NCBI GenBank assembly: GCA_000004985.1 | Contig: GG738882.1 | Source of the DNA: Naegleria gruberi | Lineage: Eukaryota | Direction: 5' to 3' (one strand) | Length of the DNA stretch: 64,000 bases | In this document: piece by piece, positions 7,313 through 63,337 of the stretch | Layout of the letters: every line of letters begins with the position of its first letter | Numbering within the stretch: position 1 is the stretch's first letter | Program-made: the position numbers and the translations under genes | Notes under the pieces: model-generated | Seen by the model: the letters and a program-made list of their open reading frames with translations, nothing else | Database searches by the model: none | Told to the model about the DNA's origin: nothing

Positions 7313-7384
7313 CTCCCGTGCCGGGAATTGAACCCGGATCTCCTGGGTGAGAGCCAGGTATCTTAGCCATTGGACCACACGGGA
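7313..7384 (-). tRNA. tRNA-Glu (anticodon CUC)
   Basis: Reverse complement: TCCCGTGTGGTCCAATGGCTAAGATACCTGGCTCTCACCCAGGAGATCCGGGTTCAATTCCCGGCACGGGAG. The acceptor stem TCCCGTG/CACGGGA and T8 are present. The anticodon stem is CCTGG/CCAGG with loop CTCTCAC, giving U33, anticodon CTC and A37. The T-arm is CCGGG-TTCAATT-CCCGG. It is very similar to canonical eukaryotic tRNA-Glu(CUC). Confidence 0.9.
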
Positions 7385-10600: not shown

Positions 10601-13600
10601 TGTAACTTCAAATTTGACTGTCTTGACAGTTTGCTCTTGAGAGAATGAGCTCTTTACTGTAACTTGAACCAAATAAGAACCAACACTAAGAGTTTCTGCT
10701 GTGAATGAAACACCAGAGCTAGTAACTGAAGCGAGGAGATTATCAACCTTTTCATCATCATCTGGGGTTGGAGCTTCAATGTTTGTCCAAGAGAAGAGAA
10801 GCTTTCTTCTATCCAAAGATACAGAACCAGATGCATCCAAATAGATACTACCACAAGCCTTTGAGATGGATGCCTTGTCAGTAGTCAATACAGCAGCAGG
10901 AGCAATACTTTGATATTCCTTCTTATTAACAAGAACATCTTCTGTTTCTTCACTATCAAGATAACTTCTGAACTTTAAGGTATCTCCAATATTAATTGTA
11001 GCCATAGAACCGAGGACAATTTGGAATACATTCTTTTCGTTAAAGATACAAACAGGATTGGATCCCAATGAATCAACATTGGCAATAACACTAGAACACT
11101 TGATTCTCTTCTTGATTGGTGTGAAAATTGTACCAACAATAGAGTCACCCTTTTCAGTGAAACCAAATGTTGTTTCATCAACCTTATAATCACACTTATC
11201 ACCGTACCAACCTGGTAAACAAGATTCACAGCTGGCACCAATTGAATTACCTTGACATGAGCATGTACCATCCTTATTACAAGTACCCTTTGAATTACAA
11301 TTAACTGAAGCAGAACAAGCAATTTGACAATTATCACCAACATAACCATCCTTACAAGTATTACAGAATTCTCCTACCCAATTGCTACCAGCACTACAGA
11401 CACACTTGAATTCAGAATTACAAGTACCATGACTATTACAAGTAAATTCATCAGAACATGTTCTTTCTAAACATCCTTCACCAGTGTATGCAGGAGTACA
11501 AATTGAACAATACTTTTGAGGGTCATAATTTCCACTACATGAACAAACACCGGATGAAATACATTTACCCTTAGAAGAACAAACAAATGAAGTGTTGGAA
11601 CGGTCAATACCATCACACTTAAAGTTTTGACAACTTGATCCATCATAACCATCATTACATTTACAAACTGGAACACCATTTTCAGCAACACAACTACCTC
11701 TACCACCACAAACACTCTTATCAGTTGCGGTAATACCATTACAAATTGCAATATCACATGTTGGACCAGTAAATCCATTCTTACATTTATCACAATAAGT
11801 ACCAGCAAAATTACCCAAACAAGAACAAGTATTTGGTGAAACACATTGACCACGGAATGAACAGCCACCTTCAGTTTCAGTCTTACCATTACAAGTTGGT
11901 GTAGAACAGTCATAACCTGAATAACCATTTTGACATTTACACAAGTTAGGAGAATCACAGGTACCCTTTGATGAACAAGCATCAGAAGCAGTACTTTCCT
12001 TTCCGTAACAGATTGGAGATTGACAATAACTTCCTGTATAACCTTGCTTACATGAACAAGTATCTTGATCAACACATGAACCCTTACCAGAACAAACTCC
12101 AGTTGCAGAGTATTCCTTTCCAAAACATGTAGTATTTGGTGGTAAATAACTGCCATAGTAACAATTTGAGGTTGGCAATGTGGAACAATCAGTTGTGAAC
12201 AAGTCAGGATGAGTAACTTCATTGTTGAGAATAATAGAGCAAACACCTGAACACCATTGCTTTTCTTCTGGAACACCCAAAGCTGAAGGATTACATGGAG
12301 TGAATGATTGATAGCACAAGAATTTCTTAATGGCTGCTTTACAATCGTCTCCACATTCAAGACCTCTACTCTCAACTTGTTTCAATACTTCAGAGTAGTT
12401 AGTACTGGTAGTTTGATCCAATTTCAACAAATTAGCAACAATCATGGTCTTGGCTTCAACGGCATTAGTGGCACCTACTGCAAAATTAGTATTCTTAATA
12501 CTGTACTTGACATGAGCCTTACAGAATGGAACGGATACAGATGGAGCAGAAATACAAGCTGGAGTGAGTGTGTAAATATTACATTCATCACCATAGTATT
12601 CTGGAGGACAAACACGCTTACATTTACCACTTGTCATTGAATAACCAGAAATACAAGATGAACATGGTTGACTAGTATTAGTAGTGAGATAGCCAGTGTT
12701 ACAGATACAAGTTGTAGTTGATGATGTAGTATCAACATATTGACATACACCTTGTCCACAACCATTCTTACAAACTGGATCAGTTCTTACACAGGTACCA
12801 AACTTGTTGACATAACCTGCTGATGTAGAACAAGAGCAACCAGTGGTTGCCTTGGAGAAACCTAACAATGAATTACAAACACAAACACCTGCCTTGGAAA
12901 GATAACCTTGAGTGGTATCACAATAGCATGATCCTTCATTGTCTGGCAAGTAACCCAAATCAGCATTACAGACACAAGCGTTTGAAACATTGACCAAACC
13001 AACTGGACAAGCAGTACATGGATTTGTACTGTCAACAGTGATAAACTTATTTCTACATTCACAATATCCAATAGTGGTATTAGTCTTGAAGAAACAATCA
13101 CCATTTGATCCACAATTCAAATCACACTTGACAAGAGGAGTAATACATTGACCATCCTTTAGAGTTAATCCTTCTTTACAGACACATCCTCCGGAAACTT
13201 CATCAGAAACAAATCCAAGTGAGCTATCACAGACACATTTTCCATCAGAGAGAACAAATCCAGATTTACACTTTTGACAATTTGAGCCAGCAAAGTTATT
13301 GAAACAATTACAGAGTTGGTTACCCTTAGCGTCCTTAGTACATTCACCATTAGCACCACAATTCAAAACGCATGGTTTAACTTCACAGAGTGAACCGCTA
13401 TAATTATCAGTACAATTACAATAGGCAGTTCCTGTTGTGTTGACACAAGTACCATGTTGACAATCGAGAGTACATGGAGCAATGGTACATTGAGTTCCCT
13501 TGAATCCTTGATAACAAGTGCAAGTATCAATTCCACTACAGCTTCCCATTCCTGAACAAACTGAAACATTATTCATTGAAATTCCGTAGCAGGTANNNNN

Positions 13601-16600
13601 NNNNNNNNNNNNNNNNNNNNNNNNNNNNNNNNNNNNNNNNNNNNNNNNNNNNNNNNNNNNNNNNNNNNNNNNNNNNNNNNNNNNNNNNNNNNNNNNNNNN
13701 NNNNNNNNNNNNNNNNNNNNNNNNNNNNNNNNNNNNNNNNNNNNNNNNNNNNNNNNNNNNNNNNNNNNNNNNNNNNNNNNNNNNNNNNNNNNNNNNNNNN
13801 NNNNNNNNNNNNNNNNNNNNNNNNNNNNNNNNNNNNNNNNNNNNNNNNNNNNNNNNNNNNNNNNNNNNNNNNNNNNNNNNNNNNNNNNNNNNNNNNNNNN
13901 NNNNNNNNNNNNNNNNNNNNNNNNNNNNNNNNNNNNNNNNNNNNNNNNNNNNNNNNNNNNNNNNNNNNNNNNNNNNNNNNNNNNNNNNNNNNNNNNNNNN
14001 NNNNNNNNNNNNNNNNNNNNNNNNNNNNNNNNNNNNNNNNNNNNNNNNNNNNNNNNNNNNNNNNNNNNNNNNNNNNNNNNNNNNNNNNNNNNNNNNNNNN
14101 NNNNNNNNNNNNNNNNNNNNNNNNNNNNNNNNNNNNNNNNNNNNNNNNNNNNNNNNNNNNNNNNNNNNNNNNNNNNNNNNNNNNNNNNNNNNNNNNNNNN
14201 NNNNNNNNNNNNNNNNNNNNNNNNNNNNNNNNNNNNNNNNNNNNNNNNNNNNNNNNNNNNNNNNNNNNNNNNNNNNNNNNNNNNNNNNNNNNNNNNNNNN
14301 NNNNNNNNNNNNNNNNNNNNNNNNNNNNNNNNNNNNNNNNNNNNNNNNNNNNNNNNNNNNNNNNNNNNNNNNNNNNNNNNNNNNNNNNNNNNNNNNNNNN
14401 NNNNNNNNNNNNNNNNNNNNNNNNNNNNNNNNNNNNNNNNNNNNNNNNNNNNNNNNNNNNNNNNNNNNNNNNNNNNNNNNNNNNNNNNNNNNNNNNNNNN
14501 NNNNNNNNNNNNNNNNNNNNNNNNNNNNNNNNNNNNNNNNNNNNNNNNNNNNNNNNNNNNNNNNNNNNNNNNNNNNNNNNNNNNNNNNNNNNNNNNNNNN
14601 NNNNNNNNNNNNNNNNNNNNNNNNNNNNNNNNNNNNNNNNNTTTGACAAGTACAATTATTTGGGGATGAGCAAAAACCTTTTCCTGAACAAACATTTCGA
14701 TCATTGTAGAGAGAAATTGAACAGTTGTGGAATTGACAATTCTCACCATAATATCCATCTTGACATGTACAATTATTTGGAAGTGCACATAAACCATGAC
14801 CACTACAAACCAATGAAGAAGTTGATGGAATAGAGGAACAGTTAAATAATTTACAAGTTTCTCCATAATAGTCCAATTGACATTCACACTTATTTGGTTG
14901 AGAACATTTACCATTACCAGAACAAGCTGATGAATCATCATAACGTACAGATGAACAATTATACAATTCACAATTATTTCCATAATAGCCTGCATTACAT
15001 TTACAAGTATCTAAATCAACACATGAACCATGGCTGGAACAAACATCTCTTGAATCAGCATAGGTGTTATCACAACTTGGAATTTCACAATTATTTCCCT
15101 TAAATCCACCGTTACACTCACAAACATCAATATCAGTACATTTACCATTACCACTACAAACCATAGTAGAATTTGATGGAACAGATTTACAATTATACAC
15201 TTCACATGACTTTCCATAATAACCACCCTCACAAGAACATTGATTTGGAGCAATACAAGGACCTCTTGATGAACATACAGAATTTTCATTCTTGTAAGTG
15301 CCATAACAATCAAATTGAGAACAATCCTTGCCATAGTATCCTTCTTTACATGAACATTGATCTGGAGCAATGCAGCTTCCCAAACCAGAACATACAAGTT
15401 TGTCATCTGAAACAATGCCGAAACACTTTGGTTTTTCACAAGCAGTACCAGAGTAGATTGCTTCAAAGGTAGAATTTCCAGATTGGAAGCAAACCTTTCC
15501 AGCATAATTGAACAATGCTAATACACCATCATTTTCAAGAACCAAAGTAAATGGATGACTAATTCCAGAGTCAGAACATGTTACAAATTTGTTAGGAGAG
15601 TATCTAACATCAGATCCATCTTTTGGTGATTCACCAATGAACAATAATTGACCAAGAGCTGAGACTTCAATACGAACATTATTAGCCTCAACATTCCATT
15701 CACTAACAACTTCTCCAGTTGAAACCTTCTTAATCTTGATGTAGGTTAATTCAACAAGGAGTACATATTGTCCATTATTAGAAACCAATGAAGAATTTCC
15801 ATTCACAGCCACAACATTCAAAGCACTTGAAATGAATGAATTGCTTGAATTGAAACCACCACAAGAACAAGTACTTGGTGAAACGCAGAAACCTTGTCCA
15901 GAGCAAACTTGGGCATCATTATTGAAAACGCCAGAACATGTAAAGACTGCACAGGATTCACCTTCAAAACCAGCTTTACAGGAACAATTGTTATGGGAAA
16001 GACACTTGCCATTTCCGCTACATGCAGAATTATCGAGTGAATTGACATTGAAACAGTCGAACTTTTCACATTGTTCACCATATTCATTGTTCAAACATTT
16101 ACAACTGTTCGGAGCTGTACAAACACCTTTACCTGAAGTACAAGCTTTGGAATCATCAAAGGAAAGACCGAAACATTCGTATTTTTCACATTTAACACCA
16201 TAATATCCTTCAGGGCAAGAACAATTATCTGGTGAAATACATGAACCAACTCTGGAGCATGGTGATTCACTGACAGAAATATTGTAACAATAGTAATTTT
16301 CACAACGATCTCCAGAATATCCTGGTTGACAAAGACACGAGTTAGGACTATCGCACACTCCATGGCCTGAACAAACAGTGCTATTGGAGCTTGAAAGAGC
16401 GTAACAATCATGGAATTGGCATTCAGGTCCATAATATCCGTCTAAACATTCACATTTTCCAGGTTGAGTACAGTTACCATTTCTAGAACAAGCATTGACA
16501 TCACCAGCAGCAAAGTTGTAACATTGTGGAATATTACAATTCGATCCACTATAATGCAAAGAGTCAGTTGAGTTGAATTCTACACTGGCAAAACAAACTG

Positions 16601-19600
16601 AACCCATAATATTGTAAACAACTAGGGAACCATCGTTTTGCAATACCATCCTGAATGGAGCAGTAGAAGAGCTACAAACAGGAACAAAATCTGGAACATA
16701 TTTGACAGCACTAGTAGTGTTATCCTTTTCTAAAATTCCGTTGAATGTAACGATGCCACTATTTGAAATTTCAATAGTGATATTATTGAATAGGAAATCC
16801 CACTTCTTAGCAACCACACCAGACATGGCATTTTCGATAGAAACAAAGTTAGTTCCAATCGAAAGCAAATACTTTCCATTGGCTGACTTTAAGGTTTGAC
16901 CTTCTTCCAAGACAATGCTGGAATGATTGGTTGAAATACTGTTATCAGCAGAGAGATCCAAACACAAACAAGTATCAATATCTTTACACAAACCTCTTCC
17001 TTCACAAACATTTGGATCACTATTCAAAACACCATTACACTTGTAATTATTACACATTTCGCCTTCATAAGATTTCTTACATTGACAAACGTTTGGAGAA
17101 ATACATTGACCAAAACCACTGCAAGTAGAAGGACTCTTTGAATCGACACCAAAGCAATCATATTTTTCACATTCAACACCATAGTATCCACTCTTGCATT
17201 TACAATTATTTGGACTCTTACATTCACCATTTAATGAACATGATTCATTGCTTGATTTACCATAACAGTAATAGGTTTCACACATCTGGCCAGAGTATCC
17301 TTCATGGCAAGAGCAATTATCATGAGCAATGCATTTACCAGACGAAGAGCAAACTGTTCCCTGCTCAGCATCAATATCAAAACAAGAGTAAATGGAACAA
17401 TCACTGCCTCCATATCCACTTTCACAAGAACAGTTATTAGGAGAAATACATGATCCTCTGGAGGAACATACAGAGCTGTCACTCATTAAAATACCATTAC
17501 AGTCATAGTGCTGACAATATGCTCCATAATATCCTTCTTCACATGAGCAATTATTAGATGAAGAGCACACACCATGTGATGAGCAAGCCATTGAGCTGTT
17601 AGAAAGTACTCCATAGCAAACTGGAATTTCACAAACAGCACCTCCATAGAGTTGACTGAATTGAGTTTGATTACTTGATTGATAACAAATATCACCTCTA
17701 GAATTGAACAATAACAATGTTCCTAAATCATCAAGAACCAATTTGTAATAAGAAGAAACTTTCCAATTCTTGCATTCTTCTGATTGGAATTGTCCAATAA
17801 TCAGAACGCCCCTATCACTAACATAAATGCTAGAAGCTTCCCAAGAGGAAATGACAGCACCATTACTAGTATCAACAATGATTGTAGAGTTTTCAGTGAT
17901 ATTCAATTGGAATTTTCCATTGGAAGAAATCAAAACTGATTCAAAAACTGATGTTGCATTATTTAGCAAGTAACTATTAGAGGAAGAAAGCCAATTACAT
18001 GAACATTCATCTTGAGCAACACAGAAGCCATGTCCAGAGCAAATATTACTATCATTATTAGCGATTCCACCACAAGAATATATTTCACAATTTTCACCAT
18101 AATAACCTGGTTGACATTTACAACTATTAGGGGCAGCACATTGTCCACGAGCTCCACAAACATCAGCCATTGATTTTTCAATACCACCACAATCATAGAA
18201 TTGACAATTATTTCCATAGTAACCATCTGCACATTCNNNNNNNNNNNNNNNNNNNNNNNNNNNNNNNNNNNNNNNNNNNNNNNNNNNNNNNNNNNNNNNN
18301 NNNNNNNNNNNNNNNNNNNNNNNNNNNNNNNNNNNNNNNNNNNNNNNNNNNNNNNNNNNNNNNNNNNNNNNNNNNNNNNNNNNNNNNNNNNNNNNNNNNN
18401 NNNNNNNNNNNNNNNNNNNNNNNNNNNNNNNNNNNNNNNNNNNNNNNNNNNNNNNNNNNNNNNNNNNNNNNNNNNNNNNNNNNNNNNNNNNNNNNNNACT
18501 TGTGGTACAGTAATAGAGTTCACAATTCAAACCTTGGTATCCATCTTTACATTTACATACATTTGGTTCAGAACAGTTACCCATTCCAGAACAAACACTT
18601 GGTTTCAATCTAGAAATACCATCACAATCAAAGATGTTACATTCATCTCCATAGTAGGATTGAGAACAAACACAGGTATCTGGAGCAACACATGAACCAC
18701 TTCCTGAACAAACCTTCGAATCATTGAATTCAATGCCATAACAGAGAGGAGTATTACAAATTTCACCACCATATTGAATCGTGAATTTTACATTTTCATC
18801 AGCATTGGTTTCAAAACAAATATCACCTACAGGTCCGTAAGTAATAAGTTTACCATTATTTTGAAGAACAAATCTATATGGATGACCAATTTGACTATTT
18901 GCACATTCTTGATTGAGGGTAACATTATCACCAAGAGAAAGAATACCCAAATCAGAAATTAGTAAAGCCAGTGAATCAGAACTATTTGTCTTGAATTCAT
19001 AAACAATAGAACCAGTAAGAGTATTTTCAACTCTTAAGGAATCAGTAGTGATGAAAGCTCTATAATTTCCATTATTGGAAACAATTGAAGTATTCATTGA
19101 GAGAACAAGATTGTTTTCCAATGATGAAATAATAGTATTGTTCTCAGAAGCATCAATGCAGGTACATGTGTCAATTGCAGAACAAATACCTCTTCTTGAA
19201 CAAACAGATGAATCAGTGTTTGGTAGTCCTTGACAGGTGAACGTCAAACATTGATCTCCAGTGTATCCAGCAGTGCAATTACAAGTATTTGGTGAAACAC
19301 ATGAACCGTGACGTCCACAGACTTCACTAGAGTTAAAGGCTATACCATAACAATCGTGGTTTTCACAATTATTGCCATAGTAACCATTTTGGCATTTACA
19401 ATTATTTGGAGCCACACATGATCCCATTCCAGAGCAAACATTTGATTCATTCTTGTGAATTCCGTCACATTCAAAATGTTCACACTCATTTCCGTAATAT
19501 CCATTCAAGCATGAACAATTGTTTGGAGCAGAACATGATCCAAATGAAGAACAAACTGTCGAAGCTTTCAAAATCTTTCCATAACAATCATAATTTTCAC

Positions 19601-46406: not shown

Positions 46407-46412
46407 TAAAAA
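46407..46412 (-). terminator. Pol III T-run terminator immediately 3' of the 5S gene
   Basis: Plus-strand 'aaaaa' at 46408-46412 gives TTTTT on the minus strand directly after ...GTAGTC. Confidence 0.6.
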
Positions 46413-46530
46413 GACTACAGCACCACAGGTTCCCAAGTTGTCTCCAACCTCAGTACTGATGTGGCTCGACGATGCTTAACTTCTCAAATCGGACGGGATG
46501 AGGTGCATTCATCGTGATATGGCCGTAGCC
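46411..46530 (-). rRNA. 5S ribosomal RNA gene (solitary)
   Basis: Reverse complement: GGCTACGGCCATATCACGATGAATGCACCTCATCCCGTCCGATTTGAGAAGTTAAGCATCGTCGAGCCACATCAGTACTGAGGTTGGAGACAACTTGGGAACCTGTGGTGCTGTAGTCTT, 120 nt. It carries canonical 5S blocks (GGCCATA, CATCCCGTCCGAT, AGTACT, GGTTGGAGACAAC, GGGAAC, GGTGCTGTAG). As I recall the Dictyostelium 5S rRNA, it also has 'GGTTGGAGACAAC'. Confidence 0.9.
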
Positions 46531-47203: not shown

Positions 47204-49206
47204 TTAGAATAAATCACTGTATGCTGATGGAGTTGTTACAACTTGTGCTGCAGCTTGATAATTTTCATAAGAACCTGCGTCAAAAGAATTGTTTGGGAAT
47301 TGATCATAGGTTGGTGGTGGTTGTTGTTTCATATTCTTTGTGACACCTTCTAGATAGCTTAACAGAGCTGATAGGACAGCATCATTTTGAGAGACTGGAG
47401 AGCTATTGGCTGATGCATTACTATTTCTATCGGTTACTATCATTTCTTTTTGAGGAAGTGGGAAGTTGTTTTGTGGCATTAGATTTCTTTGAATTACTGC
47501 TTCCATTTCGTCAATTAGTGGTTTATATGCAGTAGATAGCCGCACATATCGTTTGGCAAGTGTTGTAATTGCTCGGTAATCCTTCTCCAAGAATGTAAAA
47601 TAATCCACAGTAATAACCTTTTTAGATGATGTGGTAATTGAGGAAATCCTAGGTCTTAATCCTCTCTCAATTAATTTACAAATGTCCAAATGATATTGAC
47701 AAGTTGTGGTAATACTAGCTAGTATTGTAGAGAGAGAATATCTGTAATTTCACAAGTCATTAAGAACTTGGTATTGAAAAATACTTACGGAAATAGTTCA
47801 TGTTCAGTCATTAACGTAATTTTGAGTGCAATCTCTTCCACAGCACTTGGAGAAATATCAGGTATTCTACTCAAGAATAATAATTTGAATCCCTCCACAA
47901 TAATGAATGAATGCATATGTTGAGATTTGAAAAATGTCTCCGAGTGACAATCAACCATCATTTTGATTAAACGTTGACGATAGCTAGAAACTGCATTGAA
48001 CACTGCTTCAATAACTTGTTTGAAAAGCATGAAATTTTCAGTTGTGACAACAGCGTTTTTCAAATAGTCCCATGTACCAGGCAACAATATCTCAGAAATT
48101 GACTTGTCCAGAGAAACTTCCAAAATCTTTGGTAACCCCTTGATGAAAATGGCAAACTCATTTGGGGAATGTTGCTCAGCTCCACCCACAACAAAAGCTC
48201 TATGTTTCTCTAAATTCTTCTCATATAAATCCAAAGTTCTGTTTTGATTCTCCGAAAAGTAGAAATCTCCAAATAATAAATAGTATCTAGACCTTGGTAA
48301 ATCTCCATATCCAATAAAGTATGCTCCCATATTGTGACAAGCTCCAACAAAGTAAAAGTTTGAAAAGTAATCTGTCGAGAGTTTGGCAATTTCCAATTCA
48401 CATCTCTTGGCTGTGACTTGAGCAAAGCTCAACTGAGCAGTAATTTGTTCAGATAAAGCCAATGCTGACAAGTAAAAGGCAAATAAACACTTCATCTCAG
48501 CCTCTGTTGTGATAAATTCATTGGGAGGAACAATAATTTGTGGTGAACCATTCAAAAATTGTTGTAAACATGTCTTTACAAAAAATTCAAATTTGACCCT
48601 TTTCAAAACGGGATGTCCACTACAAAGGAAAGTATAATACAATTCTACCACATTCATTGGTGAAACTGTACTTGACATTGTTTGTGGAAATTGTGGTGAC
48701 TGACCGTTTATGTGAGTTGGTGAAGTGTACGGAAGAGATGATGATGGGATGGTGGTTGGTAAATTTAGAGGCATGCTATTGAGTAATTGATGTTGTAGTT
48801 GATTGTCAATTGAGGGAGTACTATTTGATTTGTCAGTATTATTGGACGATGATGACTTTTTCCTTCTCTCCGTTTTGGTTGGATAAGCGTCCGAGCCTTT
48901 TCCTCGTTTTCTTGGTGTATTGTACTATTTGTATGAGATTGAAGAAATGATGATTATGATGAATACTTACTGTACATTTGAGTCCTCTGGCTGAACATTT
49001 AGAGCATTCAGGAAGCTTTTTATCACACTTATATAAAACGTGTAATCAATGATATGTTGTAACTACTACTAGACACCTACCTTTTTGTGTAGAGATCGAC
49101 ATTGAATGCAGGCTATTGGGTGAAAGCCTTCCGGAGCAGTTAATCCATCTCCAATATTATAATCTTCATCCTCTGATAATGAAGCTTGACTTTCGGTTTT
49201 CTTCAT
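47204..49206 (-). CDS. Zn(II)2Cys6 (Gal4-type) binuclear-cluster transcription factor; 4 exons
   Basis: Exons are 49206..49081, 49027..48971, 48924..47789 and 47741..47204. Introns are 49028-49080 (GTAGGT...tataAG), 48925-48970 (GTAAGT...aaaTAG) and 47742-47788 (GTAAGT...ttaCAG), and the frames join. The zinc cluster spans exons 1-2: 'ACIQCRSLHKK|CDKKLPECSKCSARGLKCT|YNTPRKRGKG'. This merges ORFs 47785..48774 and 47204..47689 and adds two short 5' exons. Confidence 0.65.
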
Positions 49207-57003: not shown

Positions 57004-58319
57004 TTATAGTGATTTGGCAATTATTTTATCCAATGAATCTTTCATCTCATTTCCATTCGAATCAACCATTAAAAAAGATTTTTTCAAATCCTTAATGAGC
57101 TTAAAATGATTTTTCACATTTCGAATAACAGATTCCTTGCCGAACACATGTTCTAATATTTCTTTCAAAGCAATAACATCAGCAGCAGCTGTATGCTGAT
57201 TTTCAATTGATTTTCTAAATAACTGTTGATAAATGTTACCTAATTTACATTGATTTTTCTCTAATTTCAACGCTTTCTTCAAAATTGGAATTGTATCTAA
57301 GAAAATGATATGACTATTTTTCAAACCATCTATTGTCTTTGAATTATTCATTCTCCAGTAATTGAAAGCACGATGTAGAACACTTTTGTCGAATGGTGCA
57401 TTATGAGCAAGAATTAAGGATTTCTTTGGTAAGAAATCAACAATTAATTTAACTGCTTCCATTTCCTTAGTTCCATTTTGCACCAATTCATTTGTGATTC
57501 CTGTTAATTTTTCAGCATCTCGTAAAATTTTCACTCTAGGAAGGATATATTTTGGAAATGATAAAAATCTATCTTTTGAAATATTATAAATATAACAATC
57601 AGTTGGAGCTCTTGTTTGAAGATCAGTTGTTTCAAAGTCCAAAATCAATACATCATATTCCTCAATAGATTCAATAAGACTACATTTGAATTGATGAGTA
57701 GTGCAGCCACCATTATTAAGACAACATTGTCTACATGATTTACAAGGTGCTTTTGTTGCTTTCCTTTTGTTACCACATTGGCACATTTCAATTCTAATTG
57801 AATTACACTTAGTTGATTTCTTTGGAGGAGGGTTTGTATTTGTATTTTGAGAGTTATTAGGTTGTGGTGTTTTTTGTGTATTACATTCAAACATTACTTC
57901 ATCCTCTTCCTTTTCCATTTTGAATTTTTCTAATCTAATCTTCCTACATAATTCTTGCTGAAGAGCATTTGTTAAATAGCAAGAATTCACCATACAATCG
58001 GATATTACTTTAGCCTTATCAGTTGAGCAATCATGTTTGGTCTGTAAATGATTTGACAAACTCTTTCCAATCACATAATTTTTTTGACATAAAGGACAAA
58101 CAATTGGATCGTTCTTGTTGCTGACTACATCAGTATCTTTCCGTAATGGAATTGAGTTTTGTTTCATATTAATGCTCTTAATTATTGTTTGCACATTGCC
58201 AATTACATCTTTTGGAACAACAATTTTTTTTACAAAATTATCTGGCAATGGAGGAATATCATATTCCAATATGAATCTTCCAATTGTAATGGTTGACTCT
58301 GCGTGAATTCCATAGCCTG
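57004..58319 (-). CDS. DEDD-family 3'-5' exonuclease (DnaQ/RNase T-like) with C2H2 zinc finger and Cys-cluster; 5' end unresolved because of an assembly gap
   Basis: Exonuclease motifs are 'VLILDFETTDL' (Exo I), 'ILAHNAPFDKSVLHRAF' (Exo II) and 'HTAAADVIALKEIL' (Exo III). The C2H2 finger is 'CPLCQKNYVIGKSLSNHLQTKH'. The Cys cluster is 'CQCGNKRKATKAPCKSCRQCC'. The track's N-terminus 'MLKKXXXX' lies across the 50-N gap (58320-58369), so it is an artefact. Confidence 0.65.
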
Positions 58320-58369
58320 NNNNNNNNNNNNNNNNNNNNNNNNNNNNNNNNNNNNNNNNNNNNNNNNNN
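58320..58369. other. Assembly gap (50 N)
   Basis: Run of n. Confidence 0.99.
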
Positions 58370-58455
58370 ATTTTTTTGAGCATAAAATTTTTATCAACTC
58401 AATTTTATTGTTTACAATTTGTCGAAATACTAACGTTGCATCGTTCCTCGCAACT

Positions 58456-59301
58456 CTACACAATATTAAGTCTGGCATAATGATCAGATATTTTAAATTT
58501 TGGTAATGAAAATATCCTGGCAGATTCTGAAACGTGATGAATATGTTTGATTTCAATAACTTTCCTTAATTGTTGGAATAATTCTAAATCATTCATATTT
58601 GGAACTTTATGTCTCAAAATACTAAACAATAATTCTAATCCATTAGTTGAAATGGTTGAGGTCATAACTTGATAATCAAAACTACTATCAAAATCACATT
58701 CTTCATATAAATATTCTTCATCTTGACAATTACACATCACATTAAACACAGAACTAACCTGACTACAATCAGAAAGTGAATCAGAATCATTCTGTTCATA
58801 ATCTATACATTTCTTCAACATTACCCAAAATCTTAAAATTGAAGCAACTCCTATTTTTGTTTGATCTGATATAAATGTCGTACTATTTACATATCTGATA
58901 ACCTTTTTCATATAATATATTTTATCTATTAATCCATAGTTATCTTCATCATGACATAAATTATAAAAAAGTGACATATATTTTAAATGTCTATAGAGAT
59001 TTGAAACTAATTGTAACTCTTCAGATGGCAATAAACGTTTCAGACGTATTTGATTTGCTAAATGATGTTTAAGAGTTTCTGTATTAGATGACTTTTCAAT
59101 AATATCAACAATATTTTCAAAATCTAATTGTGCATCCAGTATTTGGTAAACATCTTCACCCTTAGTCATCAAATATCCTTCTGATATTTTAGAAATTGGA
59201 GGAACACTTTCAATTAAGTTTTTTTTTAGATCATTTTTGATCTTTTGTAATGCAGATATTAATTTTGGATCTATCAAGTGTAAAACAGCATCCAAATTCA
59301 T
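58456..59301 (-). CDS. Hypothetical protein (281 aa); possibly the 5' portion of the downstream exonuclease gene
   Basis: It is a long ORF on the same strand immediately upstream of the gap. There are no recognisable motifs. Linkage to the exonuclease cannot be resolved across the gap. Confidence 0.4.
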   Translation of the reverse strand: MNLDAVLHLIDPKLISALQKIKNDLKKNLIESVPPISKISEGYLMTKGEDVYQILDAQLDFENIVDIIEKSSNTETLKHHLANQIRLKRLLPSEELQLVSNLYRHLKYMSLFYNLCHDEDNYGLIDKIYYMKKVIRYVNSTTFISDQTKIGVASILRFWVMLKKCIDYEQNDSDSLSDCSQVSSVFNVMCNCQDEEYLYEECDFDSSFDYQVMTSTISTNGLELLFSILRHKVPNMNDLELFQQLRKVIEIKHIHHVSESARIFSLPKFKISDHYARLNIV

Positions 59302-59325
59302 TTCATCTCTAACAACAACATCACT

Positions 59326-59425
59326 TTTTGGAGTGAGTATTCAACTCACTAAAGTTTATTGTAAACAATACACCAAGAAATAGGAAAATTTGTCTAAAAA
59401 ATTTTCAACATTGAGCAAGCTTAAT
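59326..59425. repeat. Dispersed ~100-bp direct repeat 'B', copy 1
   Basis: 'ttggagtgagtattcaactcactaaagtttattgtaaacaatacaccaagaaataggaaaatttgtctaaaaaattttcaacattgagcaagcttaatactttgattc' is nearly identical to 60306-60405. Confidence 0.85.
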
Positions 59426-60305
59426 ACTTTGATTCAAGGAGAGTAATTTTTTCAACCAGAGCAAGAAACAGCACGATAAACCTAGCACCAATTCTCTTCC
59501 GACCAGACATCCGGTTCCTTCATCTTCAACATTCGGACTGTTTATAATAATTGTTAAGTCAACAGAACACATTAACACTTTCAAAACAGTTGTTCTTCTT
59601 CGGAAAGCTCATATAGTCAAGGTGATACACAACAACAAGTATCCTTTTTCTTGATGGTTGCAAAAGTGAACGCTAAAGGATAGAGTTCAACCATACGCAA
59701 GTAGATAAGATTATTTCCCAAGAATACTTACTTCGGAATAAGTGGAGACAACTCATCACTTCCACCTTAGGCTCTCTAGTCTTTTATGAAATTCATGAAC
59801 CTTAAGACTGATGAACCAGCAAGTCTCCATCTCACCTAATAACAGTAACTTGATTGCTAACAAAGGATTCAGGGCTTCAATCAATCCTTCCGAATATATT
59901 GGACATAATGAGTTATGGGCTAGATGTTTTAAATTTGAAAATATTATCAGCCAAGCATATAATCTTGAACACACACCGCCACTTCCACATGTTATTAATA
60001 TTCCTGTTGACCTCCAAAATTGAATACCCTTAATGATCCATTCACAGCGAAACCTATTTATTCATCACGATTAGTAATCATTGACTTGATGTTCTCCAGA
60101 GAGGTGATGTTTTGATTTAAGCTAATGCATGGATTCAGGCTCCTTGAAGGCACATTCTCCATTTATATGGAATAATTAGCTTGTATGGTTTATCTAGATA
60201 GTTGAGTTTGTGGTTAAGTTTTAGCCAATCACGTATCAAAAGAATTAGGTTGCTAGTATGGGCTCATAATTTCCGAATTTATTGGTGTATTGTTGGATAA
60301 ATTGG

Positions 60306-60405
60306 AGTAAGTATTCAACTCACTAAAGTTTATTGTAAACAATACACCAAGAAATAGGAAAATTTGTCTAAAAAATTTTCAACATTGAGCAAGCTTAATA
60401 CTTTG
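60306..60405. repeat. Dispersed ~100-bp direct repeat 'B', copy 2, preceded by repeat 'A'
   Basis: It is the same sequence as 59326-59425 with one mismatch (gtaagt vs gtgagt). Immediately upstream is 'gctcataatttccgaatttattggtgtattgttggataaatt' (repeat A, 60262-60305), which recurs at ~60902-60945. Confidence 0.85.
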
Positions 60406-60508
60406 ATTCCCCACCACCCACCCCAACACTCGGTGAGTATATTAATTCTTTTGATACGTCTTTATTGTTATTTTATTAGTGGTGTTATCAAGGACTTTGT
60501 GGTGCTTA

Positions 60509-60665
60509 AAAATCTGCGCTCAATAGGCCAACATAGAACTGGGTTTTAGGGTTGGTGAGGGGATTTTTAGGTGTTATAGAGGTGATCAAATTTGATGCTT
60601 GATGAAGATCTGCGCTCAATAGGTCAACATAGAACTGGGTTCTAGGGTTGGTGAGGGGATTTTTT
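60509..60665. repeat. Tandem duplication (~97-bp unit x2)
   Basis: 'atctgcgctcaataggccaacatagaactgggttttagggttggtgaggggattttt' at ~60513-60570 is repeated at ~60610-60668 ('...ggtcaacatagaactgggttctagggttggtgaggggatttttt'). Confidence 0.8.
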
Positions 60666-61123
60666 GGAGTGTCAAAGACTCTGTGGGTGTTTGAATAATG
60701 GTTGTAGTATTGGACGAGGTAATTGTAATGGAATTGATTCTATTACAATTAGGCAAGATTTTCTTGAAAATTAATTTTCAAGTTTTTCATCTTGTCAACC
60801 ATTATTCGGTTTGCTAGTATTTCAAGGGTAATAGATTAGTAGAAATTGGTTTTGTGGTTGTTCAGTGTTGAAAATAATCTATTACGTGCGTGTAGTAGAA
60901 TAAAGCTCATAATTTCCGAATTTATTGGTGTATTGTTGGATAAATTCGAATTAATTCGAAAATGGTGTTATAATAGCAAGATAGATAATTCCTCGCAAAG
61001 ATACAACTTCATTATCCATCATTGGATTCCTTAATCTTTTGAGAATGTGTATATAATCTTCAACATGTTACATTGCAAATTAATAAAAACAAGATTGAGA
61101 ACAAGTAATTATACTAATGGGTA

Positions 61124-61909
61124 TTAAAGCTCAGGGACTGTTTCACCTTTAAGGTGATTCAGCCTTGAGACCTGCTTTAATGGATATAAATCTTTATTAG
61201 CATCAACATGATACCACTCAGTATAATATTGTTTCATATAATTTTCGACTGTATCAATTTTAAATTCTCCATCCGCGCAACTACCAACTATTTCAATGTC
61301 ATTCCTATTCCATTTCTGAGTTATTTCTTGCAAATATTTCAATACCTCAGCCTGAGCATTCTTTCCTGGTAAATTAAATGCAGCTACAGGAAGAGAGAAA
61401 TAACCAGCTGTATCTATCAATTCAAAAACTACCACTTTTCCACATAAATCAATATTATCTATTTCTAATTGTAATAATTCTAAAAATGATTTAGGACCAT
61501 TTTCAAATCCAAAAATATTTCCCTTCACACATGTCAATAAAGATCGCACGGTAACAATATCCCAACTAATTAAACTAAACGAAGTTTGATTTTTCTTAGA
61601 TGTGAATTCTTTGGTCAGTTTCTCGATACTCTCTTCAGTATAAAGATGGCCATATAATAGTCCCTTGTTCCAGGTTTTAAGTGTGTTCTTATGAGGAGCT
61701 TGTATATTGCAACCATTGGATCCCCTGAAAATATCTATTAGTTTTTCTGATGAATAAAATCTAGCAAACTTCCAAAAATTCTTTACACATTGTGGATACT
61801 CTTTAGTTGTGTTGGGATGTATAATTCGTTCCATTTCATCTTTAATTCTAATGAGGTGAAAATCAAGATCATTTCCATTTTTTGAATAATTGTCAATTAA
61901 ATTCACCAT
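61124..61909 (-). CDS. Hypothetical protein (261 aa)
   Basis: A long ORF with ordinary composition and no recognisable motif. An in-frame upstream extension is open to a stop at ~62010 without an ATG. Confidence 0.45.
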   Translation of the reverse strand: MVNLIDNYSKNGNDLDFHLIRIKDEMERIIHPNTTKEYPQCVKNFWKFARFYSSEKLIDIFRGSNGCNIQAPHKNTLKTWNKGLLYGHLYTEESIEKLTKEFTSKKNQTSFSLISWDIVTVRSLLTCVKGNIFGFENGPKSFLELLQLEIDNIDLCGKVVVFELIDTAGYFSLPVAAFNLPGKNAQAEVLKYLQEITQKWNRNDIEIVGSCADGEFKIDTVENYMKQYYTEWYHVDANKDLYPLKQVSRLNHLKGETVPEL

Positions 61910-63337
61910 TTGTTGGTACAGTTCAGATTTGCTTTCAGCTTCTTCAACTTTTAGTTTTTTAATTTTTTTGTCTAACTCCTTTTTTGTGACCCAAGTTGCA
62001 AACAGAACAGAATTTTACAACCATGTCAGCCGTGAGAAGTTTGTTGATTTTTTCTTGATGTCATCTTGAAACGTCATTAATGATGATGATGATGTTTCGT
62101 GAGTTATTTTTTTTTTGAAATATTAAACAAAAAAATAGAGGGTAATTTTACTAATATATTCAAGAATTATTTTCTCAATGAATATATGGAGAAAACAATC
62201 TAAGTACTCAGATATTTCTATAAAACATGTATTGATCAATATATTCTAAAATTGTTATTTTGAATACTATGAATTCATAGTAAATTGGTGATTGGAAATT
62301 TTTAGTTTTTCAGAAGAAGTAAATTTAAGCCACTTTCCGAAAGAACAATAAAAAACCTTCTTTCCAAATGAATATATTAATTGACCTCACCTCCAGTCAA
62401 AAAGAGAGATGTAATTACCAATAGATTCTATAGTGAATTGATGAAAAAGCGAAATCCTTGTGTAAGGTTGTATTGTTTGTTGCCTTAAGGATGTAATTTT
62501 TTTGAAAAGTATTTGTAGCCAAACTTGGTATCGTTCTGTTAGTCATGTTCATTCCTAGTAAATACCATTGTGGCACTGTTCAACGTTTCACATAATATGT
62601 AAAACAATGTAGACTACAAACTCTAAATATTAGAAGACTTGAAACGATTGTGCAATATATTTATTTTTTGTTAGAAATGAATGTGAAATTTCTCTGCTGA
62701 TAAATTGCTGGTCAAAACAAGCCTACCCTTCAGGCAAGCTCTTTTTCATACATCCTTTATCTGGCACCAGAGAAATTTTTAAAACAACAGAAGGATGATG
62801 TAGAGACCCTATTGTGAAATGTTTATATGTTTAAGTCATTATACACGACCTCTGTTAATATAGTAATCGTTTTCAAAAAATTTCCATAATAGAAATTCCT
62901 GCCAAAAATATGAGTGGTAATTTCCAAATACTCAATATTCCAAACTATAGAAGTGGCACCAACAAGCTCTTTACAATACGTAGTAAACCACCTATTCAAC
63001 ATATATTGAGTAGATGAGGTTCTGAGTTGGTTGTGCAACATGTTAATTTGTTATTGGAAACTTTATTTATTAATATCATTATAAATACAAAACATAACAC
63101 CTTCTAAATTTCAAAGGAAGGTGCACCAAACGTGAATATGAAGGGCTCTTCAGATGAAGGTGTGAAGTTAAATGTACATGAATTCCGAGAGCAAAGTCTG
63201 GTACCTTTGGTAAGTAACACGAGTTTCAGGCCATTTATGATCTCTATGTTCCCCCCTGTGTTATCATGTTAAAGATTGAAAAGACTAATTTGGATGACTA
63301 ATAAATAACCGAAATAGAGCAGAAAAAAATTGGCTAC

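What the first reader, a model, noticed from the sequence alone, without database searches (positions are those of the whole stretch)
59300..61000. Repeat-rich, gene-poor patch: ~100-bp direct repeats 1 kb apart, an A/B mosaic and a 97-bp tandem duplication. Possible decayed non-autonomous element
Repeat B (59326-59425) recurs at 60306-60405. Repeat A (60262-60305) recurs at 60902-60945. A 97-bp unit is duplicated in tandem at 60509-60665. There is no long ORF inside. Both B copies begin with a GT(G/A)AGT motif. The arrangement could be a solo-LTR/TRIM-like or other non-autonomous mobile-element remnant, or a local segmental rearrangement beside the exonuclease gene.
Basis: seen in the sequence. 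Interest (0 to 1): 0.5.

Follow-up and report, generated by a model that had tools for sequence, protein, structure and literature searches.

The report
Mobile-element insertion splitting a Naegleria gene
The repeat-rich patch is a precise 1.6-kb insertion of non-coding mobile DNA, most likely two head-to-tail copies of one small transposon family, which recently split a transposase-like gene of the amoeba Naegleria gruberi; it is an ordinary kind of event in a transposon-poor genome.

Summary
The repeats are real, with coordinates off by 2-6 nt. The window is Naegleria gruberi, not a dictyostelid. The patch lies inside one minus-strand gene (about 61930 to 57004), which encodes a P-element-like RNase H domain, a BED finger and an RNase_T exonuclease. 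The two flanking ORFs are annotated as separate proteins. Three related loci (L001, L135, L136) are collinear with the window but lack 59330-60946, so this stretch is a 1,617-bp insertion.

Its layout is LE-U1-RE|LE-U2-RE. Repeat B is a 106-nt left end (1 mismatch) and repeat A is a 42-nt right end (identical). U1 and U2 are unrelated, and TT follows each unit.

- There are no terminal inverted repeats.
- A 27-nt subterminal inverted repeat has a 13-nt perfect core (reached by 1 of 5,000 shuffles).
- Both ends carry small hairpins.
- E2 has an internal 96-nt tandem repeat.
- The insertion site is TTTTT|C.
- There is no coding capacity and no Rfam match.

Best reading (about 0.45): two head-to-tail non-autonomous elements with Helitron2/HINE-like architecture. 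Main rival: one non-autonomous element with split direct repeats, as in Ngaro, PAT and VIPER. The LTR/TRIM, intron and local-duplication readings are rejected. Genome copy number could not be tested. Interest is low to moderate.

The parts
59330..60303 (+). Element E1 (974 nt including the terminal TT at 60302-60303): left end, unique interior U1 (59436-60261, 826 nt) and right end.
   Evidence: Junction alignment with the empty site of L001. End comparison. Absent from L001, L135 and L136.
60304..60946 (+). Element E2 (643 nt including the terminal TT at 60945-60946): left end, unique interior U2 (60410-60904, 495 nt) and right end. It abuts E1 head-to-tail.
   Evidence: U1 and U2 share no similarity.
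59330..59435 (+). Copy 2 is at 60304-60409. The block is 106 nt with 1 mismatch (59335 G / 60309 A), and similarity stops abruptly at its inner edge.
60262..60303 (+). Copy 2 is at 60905-60946. The block is 42 nt with 0 mismatches. The A-B adjacency at 60262-60409 is the head-to-tail joint.
59332..59350 (.). Left-terminal hairpin AGTGAGT-ATTCA-ACTCACT (7-bp stem). The E2 copy at 60306-60324 has one stem mismatch. It contains the GT(G/A)AGT motif.
   Evidence: The folding z-score is only -1.4, so this is supportive evidence and not decisive.
59364..59390 (.). Subterminal inverted repeat, left arm (AACAATACACCAAGAAATAGGAAAATT). Its partners are 60268-60294 in E1, and 60338-60364 with 60911-60937 in E2. 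It is 27 nt at 85% complementarity with a 13-nt perfect core.
   Evidence: I1-I4. A 13-nt perfect inverted match is reached in 1 of 5,000 shuffles. The pattern has 5 matches in the window against 0.31 expected.
60276..60303 (.). Right-terminal stem AATTTAT..14 nt..ATAAATT, enclosing the inverted-repeat core. The E2 copy is at 60919-60946.
60472..60670 (+). Internal tandem repeat of E2, about two copies of a 96-nt unit. The well-conserved part is 60509-60574 / 60605-60670.
   Evidence: Not reported by TRF.
61124..61909 (-). Host gene, 5' ORF fragment (261 aa), annotated in N. gruberi as a separate 236-aa predicted protein (P0001). It carries a TNP-like RNase H N-terminal domain.
60947..61059 (-). 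Host gene, short coding piece stranded between the two insertions (...EDYIHILKRLRNPMMDNEVVSLRG...ELIR). It contains a 4-nt frameshifting deletion at about 60974.
58456..59329 (-). Host gene, ORF fragment downstream of the insertion (KSDVVVRDEMNLDAVLH...), annotated separately as a 281-aa predicted protein (P0003).
57004..58319 (-). Host gene, 3' part: a BED-like zinc finger plus an RNase_T (DEDD) exonuclease, collinear with the same unit in L135. It is separated from the previous part by a stop codon and an assembly gap (58320-58369).
61068..61202 (.). Second, unrelated 135-nt insertion in the same host ORF. It is flanked by the 8-bp direct repeat TCAACATG (61060-61067 and 61203-61210) and has no convincing terminal inverted repeats.
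   Evidence: Absent from L001, L135, L136, P0004 and P0006.

Best explanation
The patch is a precise 1,617-bp insertion (59330-60946) of non-coding mobile DNA into the coding sequence of a minus-strand Naegleria gruberi gene that encodes a P-element-like (TNP-like) RNase H domain, a BED finger and an RNase_T exonuclease. It consists of two head-to-tail members, E1 (974 bp) and E2 (643 bp), of one non-autonomous family. Both have the same 106-nt left end (repeat B) and 42-nt right end (repeat A), and their interiors are unrelated. The middle 'A-B mosaic' is simply the joint between the two elements. I think the family most likely moves by an HUH (Rep/helicase, rolling-circle or single-strand) mechanism of the Helitron2/Helentron type, supplied in trans. 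In that mechanism the transposase recognises the subterminal inverted repeats and terminal hairpins, nicks at a T run, and transfers one strand without duplicating the target (TTTTT|C here). The second element either inserted at the T-ending terminus of the first, or the two were co-mobilised by read-through of a termination signal. Shown: the insertion, its exact borders, the end structure, the lack of coding capacity, and the recent disruption of a gene that was previously under selection. Inferred: the transposase class, the strand-transfer mechanism, and the order of the two events.
For: Insertion: L001 (about 79% nt identity) aligns 61071-60947 and then jumps directly to 59323-58561. L135, L136 and the proteins P0004 and P0006 break at the same point. 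Removing 59330-60946 rejoins ...ELIR|KSDVVV... in frame, as in L001. Family structure: the left end is 106 nt with 1 mismatch and the right end is 42 nt with 0 mismatches, both sharply bounded, while U1 and U2 are unrelated. The architecture matches published criteria for HINE/Helitron2 in these respects. (a) It is non-coding: nothing in 5.8 billion proteins, nothing in Pfam at E<=10 and no credible Rfam match. (b) It has asymmetric subterminal inverted repeats with a 13-nt perfect core (1 of 5,000 shuffles). (c) It has a short palindrome beyond one inverted repeat and a stem at the other end. (d) It has a central tandem repeat (compare). (e) Each unit has at least two T's on each flank, and the pre-insertion site CACTTTTT|CGAA matches 'between TTTT and T/C, no TSD'. 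(f) The sizes of 643 and 974 bp compare with about 657-673 bp for non-autonomous Helitron2. (g) Closely abutting same-family neighbours are reported, for example FoHeli4 inserted 2 bp from another FoHeli4. Recency: the host ORF diverges 0.39/0.34 at third codon positions against 0.06/0.11 at second positions when compared with L001. It has no stop codons once the two insertions and one 4-nt deletion are corrected.
Against: No Rep/helicase partner was found in the window, and no literature found here reports Helitron-like elements in Naegleria. Only this one locus is available. No further copy turned up in the window or in the metagenome, viral or prokaryote collections, so mobility as a family rests on two adjacent units. 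The polarity is unusual. The T run abuts the hairpin end, and the inverted repeat lies 7 nt (not 0-4) from the other terminus. The layout therefore fits the 'HLE2-reverse' type rather than canonical Helitron2/HINE. The hairpins are not statistically remarkable on their own (z about -1.4 to -2.5). The only E1/E2 difference weakens the E2 hairpin without compensation. A 2-bp TT duplication cannot be told apart from 'no duplication'. A heterogeneous head-to-tail pair with near-identical ends is explained more economically by the single-element split-repeat model.
Confidence: 0.45

Rival explanations
1. The patch is one non-autonomous element with split direct repeats, of the kind carried by tyrosine-recombinase retrotransposons (Ngaro, PAT, VIPER: A1-[internal]-B1A2B2). 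Renaming the first reader's B as 'A' and A as 'B', the patch reads A1-U1-B1.A2-U2-B2. The internal B1.A2 joint would template the joining of the ends into a circle. A recombinase supplied in trans would then integrate the circle by crossover at the short sequence TT shared with the target, without a duplication.
For: The order of the repeats is formally that of split direct repeats. This model needs one insertion event and not two exactly adjacent ones. It explains why the ends are near-identical (1/148) while the interiors are unrelated, and why the same TT sits at the left border, the internal joint and the right border. DIRS-order elements integrate without a target duplication at a 3-bp identity. 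Decayed DIRS-order sequences have been reported in N. gruberi. A short non-autonomous relative, SIRE of VIPER, is a precedent.
Against: In described elements B1, A2 and B2 are contiguous or nearly so (about 30 bp between A2 and B2 in SIRE). Here 495 nt, including a tandem repeat, separate them. There are no ORFs and no trace of RT, RNase H or recombinase. A fully non-coding split-repeat element is not described in the papers read. The model does not predict the 27-nt subterminal inverted repeat, the terminal hairpins or the T-run target.
Confidence: 0.2
2. These are non-autonomous derivatives of a recombinase-type DNA transposon, such as an IS607-like serine recombinase (the type linked to Fanzor2, which occurs in Naegleria) or a Crypton-like tyrosine recombinase. 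A circular form carrying the A.B joint would integrate by exchange across the dinucleotide TT.
For: IS607-family elements have no terminal inverted repeats and no target duplication. They carry subterminal repeat motifs and the same dinucleotide at both termini and at the target. Here TT is present at all three junctions, and TATTG-type motifs recur in both ends (sequence). Fanzor2 is reported from Naegleria lovaniensis and only in IS607-type elements.
Against: No recombinase or Fanzor ORF is in the window. IS607 ends are described with direct repeats, not an inverted pair plus hairpins. Non-autonomous eukaryotic IS607 derivatives were not found in the literature read. Nothing here specifically points to this class beyond the 2-bp identity.
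Confidence: 0.08
3. These are two cut-and-paste (DDE transposase) miniature elements, each with a 2-bp TT target-site duplication, that landed side by side.
For: The junctions are arithmetically compatible with a 2-bp TT duplication per element. The elements are small, non-coding and AT-rich, with inverted repeats near the ends.
Against: The actual termini (GGAGTGAG... and ...GGATAAA) are not inverted repeats of each other. The inverted repeat starts 34 nt from one end and 7 nt from the other. A second independent insertion into the very dinucleotide that bounds the first is very improbable for a TT-targeting enzyme.
Confidence: 0.07
4. The patch is a local segmental duplication or rearrangement, or a solo-LTR/TRIM remnant, without a discrete mobile unit.
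For: Repeats A and B have copy number 2 in the 64-kb window, and no further copy was retrievable.
Against: The whole block is a codon-exact insertion relative to three related loci. U1 and U2 match nothing else in the window. The left border has only B and the right border only A, so there are no complete terminal repeats. There are no TG..CA ends and no 4-6 bp duplication.
Confidence: 0.03
5. The patch is an intron or an introner-like element that is removed from the host mRNA, suggested by the GT(G/A)AGT motifs.
For: GTAAGTATTC at the start of B is identical to the 5' end of a real intron in this window (48968 region). The host ORF is otherwise almost intact.
Against: The motifs are on the strand opposite to the host gene. 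On the host strand the insertion begins TTTATCC and has no GT before an in-frame stop seven codons in. On the plus strand the element ends ...GGATAAATT with no AG. Rfam finds no group I or II intron.
Confidence: 0.02

Closest known systems
HINEs / DINE-1 (non-autonomous Helentron derivatives) and non-autonomous Helitron2 elements such as Helitron-1N1_CRe
   Same: They are non-coding and a few hundred bp long. They have asymmetric subterminal inverted repeats of about 13 nt, a short palindrome beyond one repeat and a stem at the other end, and often central tandem repeats. They insert into a T-rich site with T's on both flanks and no evident duplication, with 'between TTTT and T/C' described for Helitron2. 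Same-family elements are found abutting each other.
   Different: The T run abuts the hairpin end, which is the reverse of the canonical polarity and closer to the 'HLE2-reverse' (FoHeli3-5) or proto-Helentron layout. The inverted repeat is 7 nt rather than 0-4 nt from the near terminus. The element does not start with T/TC unless one flanking T is assigned to it. No Rep/helicase partner is known for Naegleria from the evidence here. There is no sequence similarity to any retrievable element.
Split-direct-repeat tyrosine-recombinase retrotransposons (Ngaro, PAT-like, VIPER, and the short VIPER derivative SIRE)
   Same: The repeat order A1 ... B1A2 ... B2 has near-identical repeat pairs. Integration occurs without a target duplication at a short identity. 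DIRS-order remnants are reported in N. gruberi.
   Different: Known elements carry gag, RT/RH and YR between A1 and B1, and have A2 and B2 (nearly) contiguous. Here there are no ORFs at all and 495 nt lie between A2 and B2. The subterminal inverted repeat and hairpins are not part of the known definition.
IS607-family serine-recombinase transposons (the carriers of Fanzor2 in eukaryotes)
   Same: They have no terminal inverted repeats and no target duplication. They carry subterminal repeat motifs and an identical dinucleotide at the element ends and the target.
   Different: The dinucleotide is TT rather than GG. The ends here have an inverted pair and hairpins rather than direct motifs. No recombinase or Fanzor ORF is nearby.

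Membership tests
HINE / Helentron-derived non-autonomous element (criteria of PMC4067079) | No coding capacity | tested here: met
   No start-to-stop ORF longer than 72 aa. The six-frame segments match nothing in 5.8 billion proteins and nothing in Pfam at E<=10.
HINE / Helentron-derived non-autonomous element | 12-15 bp subterminal inverted repeats, close to one terminus (2-4 nt) and 38-60 bp from the other | tested here: inconclusive
   A 13-nt perfect core sits within a 27-nt inverted repeat at 85% complementarity (1 of 5,000 shuffles). The core is 7 nt from the right end and 34 nt from the left end, so the asymmetry is present but the near distance is larger than described.
HINE / Helentron-derived non-autonomous element | Short (5-10 bp) palindrome near the terminus beyond the distal subTIR | tested here: met
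   A hairpin with a 7-bp stem lies at 59332-59350 (60306-24 in E2), 2 nt from the left terminus and 13 nt outside the inverted repeat. It is not statistically strong on its own.
HINE / Helentron-derived non-autonomous element | T-rich target with at least two T's on each flank and no target-site modification | tested here: inconclusive
   On the plus strand the flanks are TTTTT|E1|TT|E2|TT, and the empty site is CACTTTTT|CGAA. This is compatible, but a 2-bp TT duplication cannot be excluded from one locus. The T run lies at the hairpin end, which is the reverse of the canonical orientation.
HINE / Helentron-derived non-autonomous element | Shares its termini with an autonomous Rep/helicase(-endonuclease) element in the same genome | not testable with these tools
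   The N. gruberi genome outside this window is not searchable here, and there is no Rep/helicase ORF in the window.
Helitron2 (criteria of PMC3627910) | 5' ATIR 0-2 bp from the end forming a 5' hairpin; 3' ATIR 20-30 bp from the end, immediately upstream of a 3' hairpin; insertion between TTTT and T/C | tested here: inconclusive
   Both ends can form stems and the inverted repeat is asymmetric. The pre-insertion site is TTTTT|C. However, the distances are 7 and 34 nt, and the T run is next to the hairpin end, not the ATIR-proximal end.
Canonical Helitron (Helitron1) | 5' TC, 3' CTRR with a hairpin about 11 nt upstream, and insertion between A and T | tested here: not met
   The ends are GGAGTGAG... 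and ...GGATAAA(TT), and the site is T|C or T|T.
Split-direct-repeat YR retrotransposon (Ngaro / PAT / VIPER) | Repeats in the order A1 ... B1A2 ... B2 with A1=A2 and B1=B2 | tested here: met
   59330-59435 = 60304-60409 and 60262-60303 = 60905-60946, with the internal pair adjacent.
Split-direct-repeat YR retrotransposon (Ngaro / PAT / VIPER) | B1, A2 and B2 clustered at the 3' end (A2 and B2 contiguous or nearly so) | tested here: not met
   495 nt (U2), including a tandem repeat, separate A2 from B2. Known elements show contiguity, or about 30 bp of separation in SIRE.
Split-direct-repeat YR retrotransposon (Ngaro / PAT / VIPER) | Encodes RT/RNase H and a tyrosine recombinase, or shares its repeats with an element that does | tested here: not met
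   No RT, RH or YR remnant is present in any frame. Sharing of repeats with an autonomous element elsewhere in the genome is not testable here.
IS607-type serine-recombinase element | No TIRs, no TSD, and the same dinucleotide at both termini and at the target | tested here: inconclusive
   TT is present at the left border, the internal joint and the right border, and in the empty site. Other models explain this equally well.
LTR retrotransposon / TRIM / solo LTR | Complete direct terminal repeats (TG..CA), a 4-6 bp TSD, and PBS/PPT | tested here: not met
   The left border has only B and the right border only A. The ends are GG... and ...TT, and there is no 4-6 bp duplication.
Cut-and-paste (DDE) MITE | Terminal inverted repeats at the very ends, flanked by a family-specific TSD | tested here: not met
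   The termini GGAGTGAGTATTC and (rc) TTTATCCAACAAT are not complementary, and the inverted repeat is internal.
Spliceosomal intron / introner | GT..AG (or AT..AC) boundaries on the host-gene strand that restore the reading frame | tested here: not met
   On the minus strand the insert starts TTTATCC and there is an in-frame stop after 7 codons. The GT(G/A)AGT motifs are antisense to the host gene.
Host gene: TNP-like (P-element / THAP9-type) transposase family | Pfam TNP-like_RNaseH_N, preceded by the P-element HTH domain | tested here: inconclusive
   The window ORF scores 16.4 bits against a cutoff of 24.6. The L001 homologue gives collinear HTH (E 0.031) and RNaseH_N (E 0.009) hits. The relatives P0005 and P0017 score 20.3 and 27.7 bits, the latter above the cutoff. 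Catalytic residues and the C-terminal RNase H half were not examined.

The most novel reading that the evidence does not exclude
The insertion may represent a mobile-element type not yet described. One possibility is a wholly non-coding element built on split direct repeats (A1-U1-B1.A2-U2-B2) that also carries Helitron2-like subterminal inverted repeats and hairpins. That would link joined-end (circle-junction) transposition to a trans-acting enzyme in a lineage, Heterolobosea, whose transposons are almost unstudied. The other possibility is the first recently active 'reverse-polarity' Helitron2-like family in the transposon-poor genus Naegleria.
Probability: 0.2. Interest if true: 0.5.

Novelty: new member of a known kind. 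Interest (0 to 1): 0.3.

Why it matters
There are three modest consequences.

1. Annotation. Two N. gruberi 'predicted proteins' (P0001 and P0003), and probably the adjacent exonuclease ORF, are fragments of a single gene. That gene encodes a P-element-like RNase H domain, a BED finger and an RNase_T exonuclease, and it was broken recently by two insertions and a frameshift.

2. Genome biology. N. gruberi is reported to be only about 0.28% transposable elements. Near-identical element ends inside a gene that was under purifying selection until recently indicate that at least one non-autonomous DNA element family has been active lately.

3. Classification. The ends give an exact probe (a 106-nt left end and a 42-nt right end) for finding the family and its autonomous partner in Naegleria genomes. 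That search would show whether rolling-circle, tyrosine-recombinase or serine-recombinase transposition operates in Heterolobosea.

None of this would surprise a transposon specialist.

Tried and rejected
- Dictyostelid framing was rejected: the flanking ORFs are 100% identical to N. gruberi proteins.
- Metagenome scan with the 18-mer AACAATACACCAAKAAAT. The pattern was too permissive, and that was my error. 
- More specific scans found nothing real. The prokaryote genome scan gave one Lachnospiraceae hit that does not extend beyond the pattern. Two viral scans with 26-29-mers of the ends gave no hits.
- The 16-nt match to the inverted-repeat core at 48908-48923 lies in a coding exon of a Zn2Cys6 gene and is a chance match.
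- The concatenated six-frame ORF segments of the insertion matched nothing in 5.8 billion proteins or in Pfam at E<=10. There is therefore no captured gene and no decayed transposase, RT or recombinase.
- A permissive Rfam scan of 59000-61300 gave only sub-threshold miRNA/snoRNA-type noise. The best was mir-87 at 28.7 bits against a gathering score of 49. There was no group I or II intron and no rRNA.
- Exact-product look-ups of the window ORFs found no other contigs, so no strain or transcript comparison was possible.
- A search for a transposase partner among the other large ORFs of the window found only ordinary cellular domains.
- Literature searches found no description of Naegleria Helitrons, MITEs or named repeat families.
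- A PDB sequence search of the host protein was uninformative.
- The LTR/TRIM, DDE-MITE, intron and local-duplication readings were rejected for the reasons given in the membership tests.


Full report
**Observation.** The repeats are real.
- Repeat B is 59328-59435 = 60302-60409: 108 nt, one mismatch, BLAST E 5e-50.
- Repeat A is 60262-60306 = 60905-60949: 45 nt, E 8e-16.
- The tandem duplication has a period of 96 nt (60509-60574 / 60605-60670, 92%, E 8e-22). A more diverged, gapped 5' part reaches back to about 60472. Tandem Repeats Finder did not report it.
- No ORF inside exceeds 72 aa.
- GTGAGT at 59333 and GTAAGT at 60307 open the two B copies, and a third GTGAGT lies at 60433.
- None of the repeats occurs elsewhere in the window. 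A 16-nt match at 48908 lies in a coding exon and is chance.

**Organism and setting.** The window is about 33% G+C. It carries a free-standing 5S rRNA gene and one tRNA gene. The two minus-strand ORFs that flank the patch are 100% identical to 'predicted proteins' of Naegleria gruberi: P0001 and P0003. The dictyostelid framing is therefore wrong.

**The patch is an insertion in a gene.**
- A related contig, L001 (ENA metagenome, about 79% nt identity), aligns to the window's minus strand as 61901-61203, then 61071-60947, then 59323-58561.
- The junction alignment shows that L001 reads GATTCGTAAATCTGATG (..ELIRKSDVV..). The window reads, on the minus strand, CG-AA-[TTTATCC...CTTACTCC]-AA-[TTTATCC...CTCACTCC]-AAAAA-GT.
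- Removing 59330-60946 (1,617 nt, a multiple of three) rejoins ELIR|KSDVVV in frame.
- Two more distant loci, L135 and L136, and the proteins P0004 and P0006 found by the exhaustive HMMER search, break at the same point.
- L135 is collinear with the window from 61930 to 57133 apart from the insertions. It carries three adjacent same-strand ORFs, the last with an RNase_T domain.
- P0006 runs from the TNP-like part through a BED finger that matches window 58251-57934.
- The host is therefore one unit of about 61930 to 57004, and the 'exonuclease gene beside the patch' is its 3' part.
- Relatives hit Pfam TNP-like_RNaseH_N: P0017 at 27.7 bits (above the cutoff) and P0005 at 20.3 bits. The L001 protein adds a collinear weak P-element HTH hit. 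The window ORF itself is sub-threshold.

**State of the host gene.**
- Against L001, divergence by codon position is 0.149/0.057/0.391 in the 5' part and 0.166/0.106/0.342 in the 3' part. The ORF was therefore under purifying selection for most of that divergence.
- In the window it carries three lesions within about 260 nt: the 1,617-nt insertion; an unrelated 135-nt insertion (61068-61202) flanked by the 8-bp direct repeat TCAACATG; and a 4-nt deletion near 60974.
- With these corrected, a 565-codon frame has no stops.
- L001 has its own 5-nt insertion.
- The lesions are therefore recent.

**Anatomy of the insertion (plus strand).**
- The layout is CACTTTTT | E1 59330-60301 | TT | E2 60304-60944 | TT | CGAATT.
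- Both units start GGAGT(G/A)AGTATTCAACTCAC and end GTTGGATAAA.
- The shared left end is 106 nt with one mismatch, and the shared right end is 42 nt (including the TT) with none. Similarity stops within a base or two of those blocks.
- U1 (826 nt) and U2 (495 nt) are unrelated to each other.
- The 'A/B mosaic' is therefore the head-to-tail joint.
- The very termini are not inverted repeats.
- A 27-nt inverted repeat (85% complementary, 13-nt perfect core AACAATACACCAA) lies 34 nt from the left end and 7 nt from the right end. A perfect inverted match that long arises in 1 of 5,000 shuffles.
- The left terminus forms a hairpin with a 7-bp stem (AGTGAGT-ATTCA-ACTCACT), which contains the GT(G/A)AGT motif. 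The single E1/E2 difference weakens this hairpin in E2.
- The right terminus forms a 7-bp stem around the inverted-repeat core. The folding z-scores are modest.
- The interior is non-coding: nothing matches in 5.8 billion proteins or in Pfam at E<=10, and there is no credible Rfam match.

**Mechanism.** I compared the anatomy with published criteria.
- HINEs are non-coding. They have 12-15 bp subTIRs placed asymmetrically, a 5-10 bp palindrome near one end and often central tandem repeats. They target T-rich sequence with at least two T's on each flank and make no target modification.
- Helitron2 elements have 8-15 bp asymmetric TIRs and hairpins at both ends. They insert between TTTT and T/C without a duplication, and their non-autonomous copies are about 650 bp.
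- One FoHeli4 lies 2 bp from another.
- Helitron/Helentron elements often carry central tandem arrays.
- The patch matches in kind on every structural point. However, the T run abuts the hairpin end (reverse polarity), and the inverted repeat is 7 nt rather than 0-4 nt from the near terminus.
- An exactly adjacent second insertion is very improbable for a random TT-targeting enzyme. It is natural if the element end itself is the target or if termination was bypassed.
- I therefore favour two head-to-tail non-autonomous Helitron2/HINE-like elements, mobilised in trans by an HUH Rep/helicase (confidence about 0.45). The enzyme class and the strand-transfer steps are inferred, not shown.

**Main rival.**
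- The order B-U1-A.B-U2-A is formally the split-direct-repeat arrangement A1-...-B1A2-...-B2 of Ngaro, PAT and VIPER retrotransposons.
- Those elements integrate as joined-end forms without a duplication, at a 3-bp identity in DIRS1.
- Decayed DIRS-order sequences are reported in N. gruberi.
- This single-element model needs one event. It also explains the near-identity of the repeat pairs and the TT at all three junctions.
- Against it, known elements have B1, A2 and B2 contiguous, or about 30 bp apart in SIRE, whereas here the gap is 495 nt. There are no ORFs or RT/YR remnants, and the inverted repeat, hairpins and T-run target are not predicted. I give it about 0.2.

**Other rivals.**
- An IS607-like serine-recombinase reading is compatible with the TT junctions but otherwise unsupported. 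Such elements have the same dinucleotide at their ends and at the target, no TIRs and no duplication, and Fanzor2 occurs in Naegleria. I give it about 0.08.
- DDE MITEs with a 2-bp duplication fail on the absence of terminal inverted repeats.
- LTR/TRIM fails because each border carries only half of the putative repeat.
- Local duplication fails on the empty sites and the unique interiors.
- An intron or introner fails because the splice-like motifs are antisense to the host gene, and the host strand has no GT before an in-frame stop. GTAAGTATTC is identical to the start of a real intron in this window, which explains why the motif caught the eye.

**Limits.**
- Everything about the family rests on one locus.
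- My metagenome scan used too short a pattern and returned only chance hits.
- The viral and prokaryote scans were negative or chance.
- Exact-product look-ups found no other N. gruberi contigs.
- No paper found here describes Naegleria Helitrons or named repeat families. One preprint puts the N. gruberi transposable-element content at 0.28%.
- Repbase could not be consulted, so the family may already be catalogued there.

**Verdict.** It is an ordinary kind of event in an under-studied, transposon-poor genome, with a clear annotation consequence and an unresolved but testable classification. Interest is 0.3.

Noticed in passing
window 61060-61210: A second, unrelated 135-nt insertion (61068-61202) sits in the same host ORF. 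It is flanked by the 8-bp direct repeat TCAACATG, has no convincing terminal inverted repeats, and is absent from all relatives. An 8-bp duplication is typical of hAT or P-type elements, but the class is undetermined. It creates the stop codon that ends the annotated protein P0001.
   Followed up: partly
window 61058-61146 (minus strand): A candidate 89-nt intron (GTGAAAC...TTGAAG) lies within and just beyond the 135-nt insertion. If spliced it would keep the reading frame (...NHLK|DYIHILKRL...) and turn part of the insertion into 19 extra codons. The splice sites are weak and there is no transcript evidence.
   Followed up: partly
window about 60974; L001 2548-2552: There are independent frameshifts in the host ORF. 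The window has a 4-nt deletion 27 nt upstream of the large insertion. The related contig L001 has a 5-nt insertion (AAAAG). Both copies are therefore disabled in different ways despite a history of purifying selection.
   Followed up: yes
window 57004-61930 (minus strand); L135 1-4209: The N. gruberi annotation has at least two separate 'predicted proteins' (236 and 281 aa), plus the exonuclease ORF. Relatives show one collinear unit: an N-terminal region, a TNP-like RNase H domain, a BED zinc finger and an RNase_T exonuclease. I do not know of a P-element-like protein fused or linked to a DEDD exonuclease being described. Whether it is a transposon gene or a domesticated gene is open.
   Followed up: partly
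L001 1-1503; L136 1891-7471: Non-LTR (LINE-type) reverse-transcriptase ORFs lie immediately upstream of the host-gene homologue in two related loci. They are on the same strand in L001 and on the opposite strand in L136, where Exo_endo_phos, RVT_1 and RNase_H domains are present. They are absent from the window. This suggests that the gene family sits in transposon-rich neighbourhoods.
   Followed up: no
window 61910-63300: Upstream of the host ORF there is another 1.4 kb without ORFs of any length. The N-terminal 197 residues of the relative P0009 (cysteine-rich, zinc-finger-like) have no counterpart in this stretch, so the 5' part of the host gene may be missing or decayed.
   Followed up: partly
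window 60410-60440: Directly after the left-end block of E2 comes a C-rich run (CCCCACCACCCACCCCAAC). It is followed by CGGTGAGTAT, a third copy of the 8-mer GTGAGTAT that starts the terminal hairpin. This could be a remnant of a duplicated left terminus or a chance match.
   Followed up: no
window 60495-60582, 60720-60751, 60763-60782: The E2 interior holds a weak sub-threshold mir-87-like hairpin match that overlaps the tandem unit (28.7 bits against 49). It also holds two palindromes, one of 32 nt at 87.5% and one perfect 20-nt palindrome (CTTGAAAATTAATTTTCAAG).
   Followed up: no
window 13596-14641, 18237-18497, 58320-58369: There are three assembly gaps (runs of N). The third lies inside the host gene, between the 281-aa ORF and the BED/exonuclease ORF, so the junction between them cannot be read.
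   Followed up: no
window 46412-46530 (-), 7313-7384 (-), 7619-28040 (-): The window also carries a free-standing 5S rRNA gene (105 bits) and a tRNA-Glu(CTC). Very long minus-strand ORFs (2,458 and 4,823 codons, spanning gaps) suggest a giant gene.
   Followed up: no
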